In this document: positions 48,866 to 59,644 of the stretch, piece after piece
How positions within the stretch are numbered: the first letter of the stretch is position 1
Layout: every line of letters begins with the position of its first letter
DNA from: a virus
Reading direction: 5' to 3' (one strand)
Virus record (IMG/VR): IMGVR_UViG_3300010354_000044
Location: 64,001-128,000 of that record
DNA: 64,000 nucleotides
The notes under the pieces: model-generated
Seen by the model: the letters and a program-made list of their open reading frames with translations, nothing else
The model's database searches: none
What the model was told of the DNA's origin: nothing
Translations under genes and position numbers: made by a program

Positions 48866-51061
48866 ATGGCTACCATCAACCTGCTACCTAATTACCTTTA
48901 CCTCGCGTCAGGGCCCTCGGCGTCGGGTAAGAGCACAGCACTTAAGGGCCTGCCTGCAGGGGTAGTGGTGTCCTCAGACAGCTTGAGAACCCAAATATTC
49001 GGTCTTGAAGCTGATACTGTAGAGGGTAACCTACTAGCCCCTCCTAGCCTAAGACCCCGCCCTGTCAACGATAGCTTTATCTTTGACACCATGAGACAGA
49101 TCGTGGAGGCCCGTCTTAAAGCAGGACTGACAACAGTCGTAGACGCAACTTTGTTAACCGACCGTGACCGCAAGCAGTTCGTGGATATAGCTGCTAGCTA
49201 CAACGTCCCTGTTCAGATTTTGATCTGGGATGTTCCCGCCGAGCAGCTGACTACTAGAGATGCAGATCGTCAGTTCCGGGTAGGGGCTGAGGTTATCCAG
49301 CGACAACTGGAGCGCTTTGAGCGTACATCCCAGTACTCCTATATTGTAGACGACTACTTTGAGCTTGAAATAGCTCACCTAACAGTAGCTAGTAGCGTAG
49401 AACTGGATTTCGTGGGTGACATCCACGGCTGCTACGACCAGTTAATAGAACTGATTGAAAAGCTAGGCTATGTTATTGGCGAGGACGGTATTGCTAGGTA
49501 TGCTGGTAATGAGCCCCGGCGTCTGTGCTTTTTGGGCGACTATGTAGACCGAGGGCCCAAGTCCTTAGAGGTACTCAAATTCATTTACCGGAATACGCCT
49601 ACGCATTGGGCGTTGCTGGGGAACCATGATAGTAACCTTCTCAAGGGGTTGCTAGGAAAACCCGTAACCTCCAAGGCCACACAGGAGACCCTCCATGAAG
49701 TGATGGTCGCCAAGGCGGAGAAGTGGGTTACAGAGCTACTGACCTCACTGCCTCGTTATCTAACCTGGCGGAATGTCGTTATTTGCCATGCCGACATCCA
49801 GAGGCTTAACTTACCTCAGGAGACAACTCAGTGCGTTTACGGTTGTAGTAAACTGAACAGGCCTATAAACGCCGATGAAATCTGGAGTAAGACTGAGAAG
49901 CGCCTGCTTATCCGCGGTCACTTTACTCCTGACCACGAGTACGATAACGTCATTACCCTGGACGGTAATCCGGGCTATGGCGGTACTATTAAAGCAGGGC
50001 GTTTTGCTGTTGCTCAAGTTGCGGGTCGGAAGCATGATAACTTCTTAATCCAGCAATGGATTGAATTCTCATTAGGGCCTACGGAAGATTATGAAGAACG
50101 CAAGAAGACTGTAATAGGTTTTCGCCTTGCCGCTATGCCAAAAGAGTTGGTTAGCACGGCTACATCGCCTTGCGGCCACCTCAAGCTGTTTAAATACACG
50201 CCTAATGCCTTTAGACAGTCCTTTAAATCTGAAGGGCCTTGGCTGGAGTACCCTGACCTTAAGTACGCCCGAGGCCTTGTCGTAGGCCTTAACCACCAAC
50301 CGGTGAACACGGTCTTTCCTAAAATTCCTAGTTACACCGAAGGAATTGATCCGAGCAAGCAGGTGATTGCCGCGACAAAGTTGAACGGCTTTCTCCTAGC
50401 TACATTCAGACATCCTTACAAAGAGGATGTGGTCTTCACTACTACCGGGTCGTTTGACTCTGAGTACGTAAAGATGGGCCGTGCATTGTTCTACAAGCAC
50501 GCAAAACAGTCTCGGCAGCAGCTCCTAAACAGCCCGGGATTGACATTCTTGTGGGAGGTTATAGACCCTAATAAAGACCAAAATGTCCACCCTATTGCCT
50601 CGTCCGCAGGCATCTACCTAATTGCTGTAGGGCAAAATGGGGTAATCCTCCCCGAGGAGGAGATGCAAAGCTACGCCGGCAACTTGAATGTCAACTGTGC
50701 CAGTCATGTACAGACTGACTTCGGGTCAGTCCTAGAAATGGCCCGCACCAGCGACGGCGAGGGCTATATGATTAGGGACTTGGAAGGTAACTACCTTGCA
50801 AAGCTCAAATCACCGTTTTACCTGACTGTCAAGAAGTTTATGCGTCTATCGCCAAAGGCGGGCGCACAGCTCTTTAACGACCCTATTAATTTCAACTTTG
50901 AGTATATTTGGCAGCAGTGCATGGACAACCCTTATGCCAACGACCTTTATACCCGGCAGACAGCTATCGCCGAAGCTATCCGAACACACTTTTCCTGTGA
51001 AACTTGGCAACAAGCAGATAGTTTAACCCGTAGAGAATTTCTCTATCGCATGTTAAGCTAA
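48866..51061 (+). CDS. Polynucleotide kinase-phosphatase-ligase (Pnkp-like RNA repair enzyme)
   Basis: GPSASGKST..VSSD..VDAT kinase; GDIHG, GDYVDRG, LGNHD metallophosphoesterase; KLNG, WEVI, EGY, KLK ligase motifs. Confidence 0.88.
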   Translation: MATINLLPNYLYLASGPSASGKSTALKGLPAGVVVSSDSLRTQIFGLEADTVEGNLLAPPSLRPRPVNDSFIFDTMRQIVEARLKAGLTTVVDATLLTDRDRKQFVDIAASYNVPVQILIWDVPAEQLTTRDADRQFRVGAEVIQRQLERFERTSQYSYIVDDYFELEIAHLTVASSVELDFVGDIHGCYDQLIELIEKLGYVIGEDGIARYAGNEPRRLCFLGDYVDRGPKSLEVLKFIYRNTPTHWALLGNHDSNLLKGLLGKPVTSKATQETLHEVMVAKAEKWVTELLTSLPRYLTWRNVVICHADIQRLNLPQETTQCVYGCSKLNRPINADEIWSKTEKRLLIRGHFTPDHEYDNVITLDGNPGYGGTIKAGRFAVAQVAGRKHDNFLIQQWIEFSLGPTEDYEERKKTVIGFRLAAMPKELVSTATSPCGHLKLFKYTPNAFRQSFKSEGPWLEYPDLKYARGLVVGLNHQPVNTVFPKIPSYTEGIDPSKQVIAATKLNGFLLATFRHPYKEDVVFTTTGSFDSEYVKMGRALFYKHAKQSRQQLLNSPGLTFLWEVIDPNKDQNVHPIASSAGIYLIAVGQNGVILPEEEMQSYAGNLNVNCASHVQTDFGSVLEMARTSDGEGYMIRDLEGNYLAKLKSPFYLTVKKFMRLSPKAGAQLFNDPINFNFEYIWQQCMDNPYANDLYTRQTAIAEAIRTHFSCETWQQADSLTRREFLYRMLS

Positions 51062-56075: not shown

Positions 56076-56141
56076 AACCGGCAGTTTGCATCATTAACTT
56101 TTAACTTGCAATTTTGCAAGTTATGTAGTAGTATGCTAAAT

Positions 56142-56409
56142 GGGCATAGCAACTTCCTTAACTTTGAAATTTGGCCATACCTAGTTGCCGCCCTTTAAAC
56201 ATTTAACCCGCATAAAGCATTCCTTTAAAACTATTTGGGATAACTATGCTTCGCGGGTGGCTACTACCCGACTAGACGGGGCATAGCGCAGTTTGGTAGC
56301 GCGCCTGCTTTGGGAGCAGGATGCCGCAGGTTCAAATCCTGCTGTCCCGATTAAGTCGCATAGCAACTTCCTTTTCCGTAATTCCTACCTACCCTTAGTT
56401 GCCGCGACT
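56142..56409 (+). ncRNA. Three related ~52-56 nt stem-loops (56142-56193, 56207-56257, 56354-56409) flanking tRNA-Pro
   Basis: GC-ATA-GCAAC-TTCCTT...GTTGC-C-GC architecture with compensatory outer stems. Confidence 0.6.
56277..56350 (+). tRNA. trnP: tRNA-Pro(UGG)
   Basis: CGGGGCA/TGTCCCG stem, loop TTTGGGA, GGTTCAAATCC. Confidence 0.92.
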
Positions 56410-56432
56410 ACCATTATTAAGGAGGCCCGATT

Positions 56433-58265
56433 ATGACTAAGCTAGATACCCGTTTAATCAGGTGCGCCTTGGACTACTTCAAGTGCGTTCCGTTGTCAGA
56501 TGACAATGAAGTCGCTGAAGAGCCCGTACTTATTAAGAACCGCGGTATTGTGCTGCACCCTACTGCGGTGTACGCGGAAAAGGTAGTAGAAAATTGGCTG
56601 AGCAACTCCCCTAACGGGGAACAGATGAATAAGACCTTCTATACCTCCTGGCGGGAGTGCCTGGCGGTCTCAACCAAGCAGCATATGCTCAACCAATTTG
56701 TACACTACATTACCGCGTATCTTAACGACCGGGGGCTTAGTGATGAGATTATTGTTCCCCGCAATGAACAAGACATTGCTGCAGATCTGCGTCTGCAGGT
56801 TATTAGAGGGGTATCACTTGACGAATTGGTAATTAGGGCCCACAAGACCCTCTGTCAGAACATCGCCCATCCTCAAGAGGTTATAGAAGACCTGTTATAT
56901 ATTCTTGAGTGCGGCGAATTTGCCTGGAATGAGGAGGAATTGGCCAAGGTCACTAACCGAGAAGCTCGGTATCAAATCTTTAAGCTGCTGGGTCTATACC
57001 CTAGTGAAGCAGAGGAGCTAACCAAGTACCTCTTTTTCCTAGCCACCAGCGATTCCTTAATTATCGGCAACAAGCAGTATATCCAAAGCCTAAGGACATC
57101 TAATTACGTCTTGAAGCTAACCCAAGAGCAGATTGACTTAGTAGCCGAGTGCTTCCATCGGTTCAAGAACCTATGGCTGGCGCTTAAGAAAGCTTCCAGC
57201 GCAAATCCCAAAGTGGTTAATACCATATCGCGGAGAGCTAAAGAGCTGCATATACCTAAAAAGCTGCCGGCTATCAAAACTGTGACTTCGGGCACGTTCT
57301 CTAGTAGTGAATTGGAGGACCTAGGTCGTCGGTCTTCTATCAAAGACCTTGTTACAGCTATTAATGCACTGAAGCTGTACCAGGATACAGACAGACGGTT
57401 CTTCCGTGTCCGAAATGGTAGAGGTTGGGCTACTAAGGCTATGGAAGGGGTGTTAGGTATGCCAGTTAACGACCGGAAGGCTCAATGGTGTGCCTATGAG
57501 AAGACACTGCTTGCAATTCTTAAGGAGAAAGTTGCTGCAAAGGGTTTGCGGGTGTACTGTCCTGATTACGTGGACTATAGCTTCCCGACCAGTCGGAAGC
57601 AGATGGTTGGTAACATCCCTGTAGGAACTAAGGTGAATGTGCCCAAAGATTCTAGAAATTCCATTGTAGGTATCTATTGGGAAAATCAAGAAGATGCCCG
57701 AGTGGACCTAGACCTTACCGCTCATCATATGAGTGGTGAAGTAGTAGGGTGGTATACCCGTCATAGAAGTGCGCAAGTGCCCCTAGTTTATTCTGGAGAC
57801 ATTACCAGCGGGCCTGCGGCGGAGTATGTTTACCGCAGCCCTTCTTGTACCGATCCTTTCCTATTAGCAGTAACCCACTTTGAAGGACCTTTGGAAAACC
57901 TGCGGTTCCATTTGATCATTGGGCATGAGCTAGAGGAAGCTAAACATAGCATTAATCCAAATAATGTTTTATTTAGCCTGCCGCTGACTATGGCAAGTAA
58001 ACAAAGCTGCTTAGGGCTACTAACTCAGTCAGCAGAAGGTCTAACCTTCTTTGTCAACAACGTAGGGATTGGAAACCAGCGGGTAACCCGAGCGTGCGAA
58101 AAGATAGAAACTATTTTGATGCATGCATTAGCTAGTTCTAATACTGGCCTTAAGTTGCGTGACTTAAAGGATGTAATTGAGTTTGTAGACGAACCAGATT
58201 CAAACAGTATAAACCTATCCCCGAGCGAATTGATGGTTGACTCCTTCAACTGCTTTGTGGATTAA
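56433..58265 (+). CDS. Large helical protein with C-terminal TerD-like domain
   Basis: GIYWEN..RVDLDLT..VYSGDITSGP.AEY; SD AAGGAGG. Confidence 0.6.
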   Translation: MTKLDTRLIRCALDYFKCVPLSDDNEVAEEPVLIKNRGIVLHPTAVYAEKVVENWLSNSPNGEQMNKTFYTSWRECLAVSTKQHMLNQFVHYITAYLNDRGLSDEIIVPRNEQDIAADLRLQVIRGVSLDELVIRAHKTLCQNIAHPQEVIEDLLYILECGEFAWNEEELAKVTNREARYQIFKLLGLYPSEAEELTKYLFFLATSDSLIIGNKQYIQSLRTSNYVLKLTQEQIDLVAECFHRFKNLWLALKKASSANPKVVNTISRRAKELHIPKKLPAIKTVTSGTFSSSELEDLGRRSSIKDLVTAINALKLYQDTDRRFFRVRNGRGWATKAMEGVLGMPVNDRKAQWCAYEKTLLAILKEKVAAKGLRVYCPDYVDYSFPTSRKQMVGNIPVGTKVNVPKDSRNSIVGIYWENQEDARVDLDLTAHHMSGEVVGWYTRHRSAQVPLVYSGDITSGPAAEYVYRSPSCTDPFLLAVTHFEGPLENLRFHLIIGHELEEAKHSINPNNVLFSLPLTMASKQSCLGLLTQSAEGLTFFVNNVGIGNQRVTRACEKIETILMHALASSNTGLKLRDLKDVIEFVDEPDSNSINLSPSELMVDSFNCFVD

Positions 58266-58298: not shown

Positions 58299-58336
58299 AG
58301 AAGGCGGGGGTTTCCCTCCTTACCCCGCCTTTTTTA
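58299..58336 (+). terminator. Intrinsic terminator
   Basis: AAGGCGGGG...CCCCGCCTT followed by a T run. Confidence 0.8.
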
Positions 58337-58439
58337 ATACGAAACATGAGCCGAGGCCTCCTCGGCTTGTGTCTTTTTATCGCCATTTCCTAACTAATAT
58401 GTTATATTAAAAAATACAGCAGTCTAAGCTGCCCTCGAC

Positions 58440-59075
58440 ATGAAAAGAGCCAAGAATTGGGATTTCAATTCATCCTCAAATCCCCAACACATTCCTACTC
58501 CAGCGGCGCCTGCTACTGAAAGTAGAGAAAGGTTGACTACTAAAGCTGAGAGTGTACCTAAGAGAATAACACAAGGGCCCCTTACCTTATATCCGGAAAG
58601 AATTACTAATACTAATGTGAAACCACGCCTAGCCATAGAACTAACTCGTAGGCAGCAAGTGCATGTCGTTGCTGCAGTTGTTGGTGTATTGGCATTAGTG
58701 GCTGCCGGCTCAAGCTTAGTAACCCGCAGCATCCAGAGTACGTCACCTACGGGCGATGCTATGGCTGAGTTTAACTGTGTATCTACTAACAATGTAGACC
58801 CCACAGGGATTCAAACATTGTATAACGTACAATCTCAGGTCTTGGCAGCTAGAACCCCCAGGGATGTCCTTGGAGACCCCGGGTGTACATTAGCTAAAGA
58901 GGTCGCGTCACCTACCTTAGCTTCTCAGGTCCTTTTGTATGAAACCGATAGACTTGACGTAGTGCTGGCGGTTGTTGTAACCGAAAGTGCTGGTAAGTTC
59001 TTTGTACAAGATACGTTCTTTACAGACGGCTTTACAAGAATTGAAGTACAGCAAAGCCAGGGAGAATCACTGTGA
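58440..59075 (+). CDS. Single-TM membrane protein
   Basis: VVAAVVGVLALVAAG segment. Confidence 0.65.
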   Translation: MKRAKNWDFNSSSNPQHIPTPAAPATESRERLTTKAESVPKRITQGPLTLYPERITNTNVKPRLAIELTRRQQVHVVAAVVGVLALVAAGSSLVTRSIQSTSPTGDAMAEFNCVSTNNVDPTGIQTLYNVQSQVLAARTPRDVLGDPGCTLAKEVASPTLASQVLLYETDRLDVVLAVVVTESAGKFFVQDTFFTDGFTRIEVQQSQGESL

Positions 59076-59644
59076 TTATAGCTATAGCAGGGCCCCATAG
59101 CAGTGGTAAGGATACTATTGCCGCTTTCTTAAAACCTTACGGCTTCAAAAGAATATCGTATGCGGATGAGGTTTGCCGGTGCGTATCCCATAAATACAAG
59201 CTCCCCTACGCCCGTCTTTTAGGCTTAAATCAAGAAGATAGACTTTGGCGCAGAACACCCCATACTAGCCTGGCTGTCCGTAACGGCGCACATTTAACCC
59301 CCTTGGATGTTCTAAATATAGAAGGGGATGGCAGCCGAGAAGTACAGCCAGATGTTTGGGTAAAGCACCTGCTGGATGTTATTGACAAAGATCCCCAAAG
59401 TAACTGGGTGATTCCAGGTCTAAGGCGCTTGAATGAAGCACAAGCTGTTCTAGCAAGGGGAGGGCTACTTTGGTATGTTCATAAACAGGGCCTTCCTTTA
59501 GGCCCTGAAGAGAAGGAACTCCCTTTTGTTAGGAATCTTGCTTCAGAGATTATTTATAACCAAGCAACCCTCTCTGACTTAGAGCAGACTGTAATGGGTC
59601 TAATATTAAAATTCAACATCCAGGGCGCAAATGCTACTTATTAG
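59072..59644 (+). CDS. Deoxynucleoside monophosphate kinase
   Basis: IIAIAGPHSSGKDT, SYAD, PDVWV, VIPGLR..NEA. Confidence 0.8.
   Translation: MIIAIAGPHSSGKDTIAAFLKPYGFKRISYADEVCRCVSHKYKLPYARLLGLNQEDRLWRRTPHTSLAVRNGAHLTPLDVLNIEGDGSREVQPDVWVKHLLDVIDKDPQSNWVIPGLRRLNEAQAVLARGGLLWYVHKQGLPLGPEEKELPFVRNLASEIIYNQATLSDLEQTVMGLILKFNIQGANATY

What the first reader, a model, noticed from the sequence alone, without database searches (positions are those of the whole stretch)
56100..58265. Three structured RNAs + tRNA-Pro + TerD-like protein: candidate novel ribonucleoprotein operon
Seen: behind a TTGCAA-N17-TAGTAT promoter candidate lie three stem-loops with covarying outer stems (GGGC/GCCC, CCCGC/GCGGG, AGTCGC/GCGACT). 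Each has an asymmetric ATA(A)/(T)C internal loop, an inner stem and TTCCTT opening a pyrimidine-rich loop. A tRNA sits between copies 2 and 3, and copy 3 abuts the SD of a 610-aa helical + TerD-like gene. Established: Y RNAs are bulged-stem, pyrimidine-loop RNAs encoded beside Ro60. Inference: RNAs released by tRNA processing that bind the downstream protein, or autoregulatory sites (TTCCTT can pair with AAGGAG).
Basis: partly seen in the sequence, partly recalled or inferred. Interest (0 to 1): 0.7.

Follow-up and report, generated by a model that had tools for sequence, protein, structure and literature searches.

The report
Phage Y-like RNAs with TerD-domain partner
Three small folded RNAs with one conserved "handle" sit in front of an unannotated 610-residue phage gene, and the same RNA-gene pair recurs in nearly every related phage locus examined, so it is probably an undescribed RNA-protein particle built on the plan of the Ro60/Y-RNA particle but with a protein that shows no detectable relation to Ro60.

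Summary
Window 56142-56193, 56206-56258 and 56354-56409 are three hairpins with one architecture. Each has an outer stem, a 3-nt A-N-A bulge, a 6-bp inner stem ending in U, a loop that opens UCCU, a single bulged C, then the outer stem. tRNA-Pro lies between copies 2 and 3. The 610-aa gene follows copy 3 after 23 nt.

The protein is a helical N-domain with no clear match among solved structures, plus a TerD-fold C-domain. It has no Pfam, PHROG or PADLOC family, yet about 1,160 clusters of relatives exist, mostly viral.

The same hairpin stands on the gene's strand, in arrays of 1-8, next to the homologue in S-CRM01, S-CBWM1, Phass-1, three metagenomic lineages and 76 of 80 IMG/VR loci. It occurs nowhere else in this 172-kb genome. 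Covariation is strong.

In about 15% of loci one copy carries a tRNA-like domain that matches Rfam YrlA below threshold. No TROVE or Nop similarity was detected.

Best reading: a Ro60/Y-RNA-like particle with a different protein. Binding and expression are untested.

The scan has found this pair before in at least 31 other genomes. I found no description in Rfam, Pfam or the papers searched.

The parts
56106..56134 (+). Weak sigma-70-like promoter candidate TTGCAA-N17-TAGTAT, overlapping the palindrome CTTGCAATTTTGCAAG (56105-56120)
   Evidence: Read. It matches 8/12 of the consensus and was not listed by the scan, which needs 9/12. Unverified.
56142..56193 (+). Handle hairpin copy 1: GGGC | AUA | GCAACU | 28-nt loop opening UCCUUAAC | AGUUGC | C | GCCC
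   Evidence: CM R1 gives 47.2 bits, E 7e-10.
56206..56258 (+). Handle hairpin copy 2: ACCCGC | AUA | AAGCAU | 25-nt loop opening UCCUUUAA | AUGCUU | C | GCGGGU
   Evidence: CM R1 gives 44.0 bits.
56277..56350 (+). tRNA-Pro (anticodon UGG) between copies 2 and 3
   Evidence: ARAGORN. Rfam tRNA 69.6 bits.
56354..56409 (+). Handle hairpin copy 3: AGUCGC | AUA | GCAACU | 28-nt loop opening UCCUUUUC | AGUUGC | C | GCGACU
   Evidence: CM R1 gives 44.0 bits.
56419..56425 (+). Shine-Dalgarno AAGGAGG, 7 nt before the ATG and 10 nt after hairpin 3
   Evidence: Read. Across 69 related loci the last hairpin ends a median of 20 nt before the start codon.
56433..58265 (+). 610-aa partner protein: helical N-domain (about 1-372) with no clear match among solved structures, plus a TerD-fold C-domain (about 400-565) that keeps the conserved acidic motifs (DxD at 425/427; SGD..T..A..E at 454-464)
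   Evidence: ORF. No Pfam, PHROG or PADLOC family. 1,162 relatives. AF2 models and fold searches. Conserved columns.
58303..58372 (+). Two terminator-like hairpins after the gene (GGCGGGG..CCCCGCC + T6 at 58303-58335; 58344-58372 + T-rich tail)
   Evidence: Read. The second was listed by the scan.

Best explanation
The locus encodes a two-part module: a 610-aa protein and an array of small RNAs that share one conserved handle.

The handle consists of:
- a C-G closing pair;
- an A-N-A bulge opposite a single C;
- a 6-bp helix with a purine-rich 5' strand;
- a U/U juxtaposition;
- UCCU at the start of the loop.

Proposed mechanism (all steps inferred):
1. The array is transcribed together with the gene.
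2. It is cut into single hairpin RNAs. Here the tRNA-Pro between copies 2 and 3 would bring in RNase P and RNase Z.
3. Each RNA is bound through its handle by the protein.
4. The variable loop is displayed. In some relatives the loop is a full tRNA-like domain.
5. The loop tethers, gates or decoys other RNA-handling factors, as Y RNAs do for Ro60.
6. The TerD domain, which keeps the conserved acidic motifs I take (from memory) to be its Ca2+ site, stands where Ro60 has its vWA domain.
7. The last hairpin lies about 20 nt before the start codon, so binding there may also feed back on translation of the protein.

Shown here: the RNA structure, its covariation, its exclusive linkage to this gene family, the tRNA-like inserts and the protein folds.

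Not shown: transcription as small RNAs, processing, binding and function.
For: Structure:
- On 15 copies, 95.2% of cells are paired against 65.7% in shuffles, and 10 of 11 pairs show compensatory changes.
- On 138 distinct copies, 99.6% are paired against 77.9%, with 345 compensatory cells against 93.5.

Linkage to the gene:
- S-CRM01 has 5 copies upstream and 1 downstream of g174. S-CBWM1 has 2. Phass-1 has 6 in tandem.
- Three metagenomic lineages have 2 copies each, just downstream of the gene.
- A jumbo-phage locus not used for training has 3 copies directly upstream.
- Model R1 finds 207 hits in 79 IMG/VR loci, all on the gene strand.
- The descriptor finds a copy in 76 of 80 loci. Of the other four, three lack upstream DNA and one has a CM hit.
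- The only copies in the whole 172-kb genome are these three. In a 50-kb stretch of S-CRM01 that holds most of its tRNA genes, the only copies flank g174.
- No neighbouring protein gene is conserved.

tRNA-like inserts: they occur in 12 of 80 loci and in S-CRM01. They match Rfam YrlA at 35-49.5 bits, E down to 4e-8. That is as good as the YrlA match beside a genuine phage Ro gene (33.3 bits).

Position: arrays lie upstream, downstream or 1.3 kb away from the gene.
Against: - There is no direct evidence of transcription, processing or binding. The only RNA run holding any of the locus gives a 159-nt contig inside the gene and nothing on the hairpins.
- The N-domain has no known RNA-binding fold.
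- The handle lacks the Ro60-site motif GNCGAAN0-1G.
- The window's own three copies have no tRNA-like domain.
- The constant position of the last hairpin next to the RBS fits a cis-regulatory leader equally well.
Confidence: 0.62

Rival explanations
1. The hairpins are only cis-acting operators in the mRNA leader or trailer. The protein, or a host factor, binds them to control translation or stability of the gene's own mRNA, and no free small RNAs are made.
For: 172 of 211 copies end within 500 nt upstream of the gene. The last copy ends a median of 20 nt before the start codon, and 52 of 69 loci have an SD-like sequence. UCCUU is complementary to AAGGA of the SD.
Against: Arrays hold up to 8 copies. 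Some lie only downstream (L005-L007, L027, L080) or 1.3 kb away beside a tmRNA (Phass-1). Some copies carry a complete tRNA-like domain, which has no obvious role in an operator. A tRNA gene sits inside the array here. This reading can also hold alongside the main one.
Confidence: 0.17
2. This is a guide-RNA array in the manner of TIGR-Tas stem-loop arrays or CRISPR. The conserved handle anchors the protein, and the variable loop is a guide that pairs with a nucleic-acid target.
For: A tandem stem-loop array lies up- or downstream of a phage gene, with variable stems and loops and short invariant motifs. This is the general layout described for TIGR stem-loop arrays (PMC12045711).
Against: No Nop domain was found. 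There are no box C (CCA) / box D (UG) flanked 8-12-nt dual spacers. The two 6-nt segments pair with each other. The loops are A/U-rich and partly conserved (UCCUAUUAAA, UUGG). They have no match in the phage's own genome beyond 11 nt. No nuclease domain or fused longer form was found.
Confidence: 0.07
3. The hairpins are decoys that mimic tRNA anticodon loops. With the protein, they soak up host anticodon nucleases.
For: The loop of copy 2 contains UUUGGGA, the anticodon loop of the adjacent tRNA-Pro (earlier lead e1-5731885). A Pnkp-like kinase-phosphatase gene lies 5 kb upstream. The locus often sits among tRNA genes (21 of 80 loci).
Against: Same-locus 7-mer matches between loops and anticodon loops number 4, against 1.7 in permutations (p about 0.09), and two of the four are duplicates. 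UUGG is a semi-conserved loop motif across the family whatever tRNAs are nearby. Most loci have no tRNA nearby.
Confidence: 0.08
4. The elements act on DNA, as hairpin sites for a mobile element, recombinase or nuclease encoded by the gene.
For: The gene and its hairpins travel together through unrelated genome contexts, often near homing endonucleases and tRNA arrays.
Against: All copies are on the gene's strand. G-U pairs occur in the stems. Inserts are tRNA-like with T and D arms. No nuclease or recombinase fold was found.
Confidence: 0.03

Closest known systems
Ro60 (Rsr; TROVE + vWA) with bacterial and phage Y RNAs YrlA/YrlB (Rfam RF02553; Chen et al. 2014, PMC4201824)
   Same: One or several small RNAs are encoded beside the gene of a roughly 550-600-aa protein with a large helical domain and a second domain. 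The RNAs have a protein-site stem with an internal loop. Some carry a tRNA-like domain in the same permuted order (V, T arm, closed acceptor stem, D arm) that the YrlA model recognises at 35-49.5 bits. The system occurs in phages that carry tRNA arrays and RNA-repair genes.
   Different: No TROVE signal by Pfam, by six-frame HMM or by hhalign against six phage Ro60 proteins (prob 0.4%). No Ro60 chain appears in three fold searches. The C-domain is TerD, not vWA. The handle (C-A-N-A ... UUCCU ... U-A ... C-G) lacks GNCGAAN0-1G. The handle model finds nothing beside genuine phage Ro genes. Arrays have up to 8 copies, most without a tRNA-like domain. All YrlA scores are below Rfam's gathering score of 69.
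TIGR-Tas stem-loop arrays (Faure et al. 2025, PMC12045711)
   Same: A phage-borne single protein with an adjacent tandem array of stem-loops. [quoted passage not shown]
   Different: No Nop domain. No box C/D motifs. No dual 8-12-nt spacers. Here the variable 6-nt segments pair with each other and the loops are partly conserved. No nuclease domain.
TerD-family proteins of the tellurite-resistance (Ter) system (for example PDB 2kxt, 2qz7, 3ibz)
   Different: Pfam TerD does not hit. The domain is fused to a 370-aa helical domain. There is no Ter operon context. No RNA partner is known to me for TerD proteins.
MXAN_6230/SCO0854-family RING-domain proteins (NCBIfam NF041916)
   Same: Weak local similarity (17-29 bits) over the end of the helical part and the start of the TerD part. 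ESM Atlas lists Prok-RING_4 clusters as its nearest named neighbours (0.82-0.87).
   Different: Far below the family cut-off (600 bits). No RING domain here. The relation was not tested further.

Membership tests
Ro60/Y-RNA (YrlA) particle | Partner protein has a TROVE domain detectable by sequence | tested here: not met
   Pfam gives no family at E<=1 and none in 9 further members at E<=0.1. PF05731 six-frame over the 172-kb genome gives no match, while the control in D. radiodurans is positive. hhalign of the family profile against Bxz1 Ro gives prob 0.09%, and against 6 phage Ro60 proteins prob 0.4%.
Ro60/Y-RNA (YrlA) particle | Partner protein has the Ro60 helical ring fold | tested here: inconclusive
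Ro60/Y-RNA (YrlA) particle | C-terminal vWA domain | tested here: not met
Ro60/Y-RNA (YrlA) particle | RNA genes adjacent to the protein gene | tested here: met
Ro60/Y-RNA (YrlA) particle | GNCGAAN0-1G motif near the 5' end (PMC4201824) | tested here: not met
   The consensus of 138 copies is (G)GC-A-N-A-R. The closest variant, GGCAAAG, differs at one position.
Ro60/Y-RNA (YrlA) particle | tRNA-like domain (T arm, D arm, closed acceptor stem) | tested here: not met
   The window's three copies have 25-28-nt loops without it. It is present in one or two copies of the array in 12 of 80 related loci and in S-CRM01.
Ro60/Y-RNA (YrlA) particle | Reaches the Rfam RF02553 gathering score (69 bits) | tested here: not met
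   No hit in the window. Relatives score 35-49.5 bits.
TIGR-Tas | Nop-domain protein | tested here: not met
   No Pfam Nop hit. PF01798 six-frame over the genome gives none, with positive controls. The fold searches list no Nop protein, which by itself is inconclusive.
TIGR-Tas | Dual 8-12-nt spacers flanked by box C (CCA) and box D (UG) | tested here: not met
   The sequence shows 6-nt segments that pair with each other in 98.9-99.8% of cells. The invariant motifs are C-A-N-A, UUCCU, U-A and C-G.
TerD domain (PF02342) | TerD beta-sandwich fold | tested here: met
TerD domain (PF02342) | Match to the Pfam TerD profile | tested here: not met
   No Pfam hit. Atlas neighbours carry TerD in only 22% of members.

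The most novel reading that the evidence does not exclude
A widespread phage ribonucleoprotein that arose independently of Ro60. A TerD-fused helical protein holds a family of 'handle' RNAs whose exchangeable loops range from 22-nt A/U-rich loops to full tRNA mimics. The loops act as a modular display system that captures, protects or misdirects host or phage RNA-processing and tRNA-targeting factors during infection.
Probability: 0.35. Interest if true: 0.9.

Novelty: new variant of a known kind. Interest (0 to 1): 0.8.

Why it matters
Ro60 with Y RNAs is, as far as I know, the only described particle of its kind in bacteria and phages: a protein with adjacent small RNAs that mimic tRNA.

This locus belongs to a second pairing, also large. 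About 1,160 protein clusters at 50% identity were found. They occur in cyanophages, a gut phage, jumbo phages and many uncultured phages. The RNA plan is the same, but the protein shows no detectable relation to Ro60.

Neither the RNA nor the protein has a family in Rfam or Pfam. I found no description of the pair in the papers searched.

If the RNAs bind the protein, three things follow:
- tRNA-mimic RNPs would have been adopted at least twice, or Ro60 has a relative diverged beyond recognition.
- The TerD fold would gain a first link to RNA.
- Phage biology would gain a new, compact and easily testable RNA-protein module that sits among tRNA and RNA-repair genes.

Two isolates with culturable hosts (S-CRM01, S-CBWM1) make it directly testable.

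Tried and rejected
- **Rfam on the window locus at E<=10:** only the tRNA and chance-level hits.
- **Sequence searches of the protein:** PHROGs, PDB sequence search, PADLOC and the PDB profile search gave nothing.
- **The search for homologous proteins (word index):** it found only the query itself and no longer fused form (weak evidence).
- **The search for related loci:** it failed with A2. With A3 or P0001 on viral contigs, and with A3 on genome contigs, it found nothing. It worked only with the sub-family alignment A6 and on metagenomes.
- **Fold searches of the N-domain:** no Ro60, Nop or other convincing match. This does not show that the fold is new.
- **Reads:** only Logan contigs were available. 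The one RNA run holds a 159-nt piece of the gene and a tRNA-like contig and says nothing about the hairpins. The lack of cover there is no evidence.
- **Anticodon-loop mimicry of the loops:** not significant.
- **Loop complementarity to the phage's own genome:** none beyond 11 nt.
- **K-turn reading of the A-N-A/C internal loop:** rejected by eye. The pairs after the bulge are Watson-Crick, not tandem G-A.
- **Papers:** two on Ro60 binding sites (PMC1369656, PMC10870794) are not held.
Full report
**1. What is in the window**

Behind a weak promoter-like site lie three hairpins, at 56142-56193, 56206-56258 and 56354-56409. The promoter site, TTGCAA at 56106, N17, TAGTAT at 56129, matches 8 of 12 consensus positions and was not listed by the scan.

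tRNA-Pro(UGG) lies at 56277-56350, between copies 2 and 3. Copy 3 ends 10 nt before the SD AAGGAGG. The ATG of a 610-aa ORF (56433-58265) follows, then two terminator-like hairpins.

Copy 2 can be re-parsed as ATA / AAGCAU..AUGCUU / C. All three then share one plan:
- an outer stem;
- a 3-nt A-N-A bulge;
- a 6-bp inner stem ending in U;
- a loop that opens UCCU;
- the inner stem;
- a single bulged C;
- the outer stem.

Rfam has no family for them.

**2. The protein**

It has no Pfam, PHROG, PADLOC or PDB-sequence match. An exhaustive HMMER search still finds 1,162 representative clusters at E<=0.001. All of the 150 listed are about 600 aa long. The ESM Atlas calls the nearest clusters viral hypothetical proteins.

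An AlphaFold2 model built on 109 relatives is confident (pLDDT 92.8, pTM 0.90).

The C-terminal 160 residues are a TerD beta-sandwich:
- Foldseek matches 2qng, 2kxt and 3ibz at prob 1.0;

Invariant residues there are G413, W416, D425, D427, G455 and D456. S454, T458, A460, A462 and E464 are nearly invariant. I take these to be the acidic Ca2+-site motifs of TerD, from my own knowledge of that family.

The N-terminal 372 residues were modelled alone (pLDDT 88.9). They have no convincing match:
- Foldseek best E is 0.02;
- the second look also lists nothing relevant.

**3. The RNA goes with the gene**

tblastn finds homologues at about 31% identity in Synechococcus phages S-CRM01 and S-CBWM1, and at 28% in the gut phage Phass-1. 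All three lie in or beside tRNA genes.

A strict descriptor of the hairpin gives these counts:

| Locus | Copies found | Expected by simulation |
|---|---|---|
| S-CRM01 locus | 6 (5 directly upstream of g174, 1 directly downstream) | 0.06 |
| S-CBWM1 locus | 2 | 0.13 |
| Phass-1 locus | 6 in tandem, 1.3 kb downstream, just before a tmRNA | 0.03 |

- In the whole 172-kb genome of the window, only the three copies here are found, plus one chance-level hit on the other strand.
- In a 50-kb stretch of S-CRM01 that holds most of its tRNA genes, only the six copies around g174 are found.
- Three metagenomic lineages have two copies just downstream of the gene and no tRNA within 3 kb.

**4. Structure and model**

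On an alignment of 15 short-loop copies:
- 95.2% of cells are paired, against 65.7% after shuffling and 34-51% when the partners are slid;
- 10 of 11 pairs show compensatory changes.

A covariance model built from these copies (R1) recovers most copies it was not trained on. It misses the S-CRM01 copy with the 94-nt tRNA-like loop. It finds nothing else in the 64-kb window or in 50 kb of S-CRM01 at E<=1.

A jumbo-phage locus fetched afterwards has three copies directly upstream of the gene.

With a sub-family alignment, 80 IMG/VR loci were fetched. R1 gives 207 hits at E<=0.01 in 79 of them, every one on the gene's strand. The descriptor adds these figures:
- 76 of 80 loci have a copy. Three of the others lack upstream DNA and one has a CM hit.
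- The usual copy number is 2-3, with a maximum of 8.
- 172 of 211 copies end within the 500 nt before the gene.

On 138 distinct copies, 99.6% of cells pair and 345 cells are compensatory, against 93.5 in shuffles. This alignment is fitted to the model.

Invariant positions are the closing C-G pair, A1 and A3 of the bulge, the U-A pair at the top of the inner stem, UCCU, and a U just before the 3' strand. The bulged C is nearly invariant (134 of 138). A UUGG in mid-loop is present in about half of the copies.

The last hairpin ends a median of 20 nt before the start codon. No neighbouring protein gene is conserved. The gene and its array are therefore a self-contained module.

**5. Link to Y RNAs**

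In S-CRM01 the second copy has a 94-nt loop. By eye it holds a T arm, a closed acceptor-like stem and a D arm in permuted order. Rfam's YrlA model matches it end to end at 35.9 bits.

Twelve of the 80 IMG/VR loci have such copies, usually the last or second-last of the array. YrlA matches them at 35-49.5 bits, with E down to 4e-8. All are below the gathering score of 69. Beside a genuine phage Ro60 gene the same model scored 33.3 bits. Sub-threshold scores are therefore normal for phage YrlA.

YrlA is defined by three things: its place next to a TROVE protein, a GNCGAAN0-1G motif and the tRNA-like domain (PMC4201824).

**6. The protein shows no detectable relation to Ro60**

- TROVE is absent by Pfam.
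- It is absent by six-frame HMM over the genome, with a positive control.
- hhalign of the family profile gives prob 0.09% against Bxz1 Ro and 0.4% against six phage Ro60 proteins.
- The handle model finds nothing in 64 kb around genuine phage Ro genes.
- The fold searches do not list Ro60. This is inconclusive rather than negative.
- The C-domain is TerD, not vWA.

**7. Other comparisons**

TIGR-Tas stem-loop arrays share the layout: a phage protein with a tandem stem-loop array on either side of the gene (PMC12045711). Their defining features are not met here. No Nop domain was found. There are no box C/D-flanked dual spacers. The variable 6-nt segments pair with each other.

The earlier lead that the loops mimic anticodon loops is not supported statistically. 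There are 4 same-locus matches against 1.7 in permutations, p about 0.09, and two of the four are duplicates.

A weak local hit to NF041916 (bacterial RING/SCO0854 family; 17-29 bits against a cut-off of 600) and the Atlas's Prok-RING_4 neighbours hint at bacterial relatives of the C-terminal part.

**8. Expression**

Only assembled contigs could be laid. One metatranscriptome holds an identical 159-nt piece of the gene. Nothing bears on the hairpins. Lake metagenomes hold relatives of the gene at mostly 85-95% identity. In one of them the changes in copy 3 fall in its loop only.

**9. Verdict**

This is one member of a large family of RNA-gene pairs in phages that I could not find described.

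The best explanation is an RNA-protein particle that works like Ro60/Y RNA (confidence about 0.6). The RNAs share YrlA's tRNA-mimic module, but the handle and the protein differ.

A purely cis-regulatory role, a guide-RNA role and a decoy role remain possible. The first can hold alongside the main reading.

Earlier notes of this scan report the same pair in at least 31 other genomes, and the follow-ups shown read it the same way. I found no description in Rfam, Pfam or the papers searched.

Noticed in passing
window 48866-51058 (+): A 731-aa ORF with a polynucleotide-kinase-like P-loop (AAA_33, 83.8 bits) and a calcineurin-like phosphoesterase (Metallophos, 46.1 bits). This is the Pnkp-type RNA end-healing layout. 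The C-terminal roughly 370 aa have no Pfam hit. It lies 5 kb upstream of the RNA array.
   Followed up: partly
window 56105-56120: A perfect palindrome, CTTGCAATTTTGCAAG, overlaps the candidate -35 region of the array's promoter. It looks like an operator.
   Followed up: no
L003 6632-7070 (Phage Phass-1, OQ749652.1): A tmRNA (Rfam 77.9 bits) directly follows the six tandem handle hairpins. No tmRNA feature appears in the record's feature table for this stretch.
   Followed up: partly
L001 5212-5284 and 2370-2438 (S-CRM01): Unannotated tRNA-like matches (Rfam tRNA 36.2 and 26 bits) lie within the tRNA region. A 660-nt stretch without features (L001 1456-2115) lies between tRNA-Trp and tRNA-Asn.
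   Followed up: no
L088 2632-2749: One handle hairpin encloses what looks like a tRNA in normal, not permuted, order: D arm, anticodon-like arm, T arm, acceptor 3' strand and ACCA.
   Followed up: no
L050 2556-2717, L053 2809-2975, L071 2807-2963: These tRNA-like copies have a conserved insertion of about 45 nt inside the closed acceptor-like stem (…AGCUGUACGCGGUGCCCACCCCCUCGUGCAGC…). This is a further conserved module.
   Followed up: no
protein P0028 (713 aa): A family member is listed from a eukaryote proteome set (Abeoforma whisleri, eukprot). It may be phage or bacterial contamination of that assembly.
   Followed up: no
window 59072-59641 (+): A deoxynucleoside monophosphate kinase (phrog_139, E 2e-25) lies downstream of the locus.
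   Followed up: no
P0001 residues 394-465; P0080 419-499: Weak local similarity to NCBIfam NF041916 (MXAN_6230/SCO0854 RING-domain family). ESM Atlas lists Prok-RING_4 clusters of Actinomycetota as its nearest named neighbours. These may be bacterial relatives of the TerD part.
   Followed up: partly
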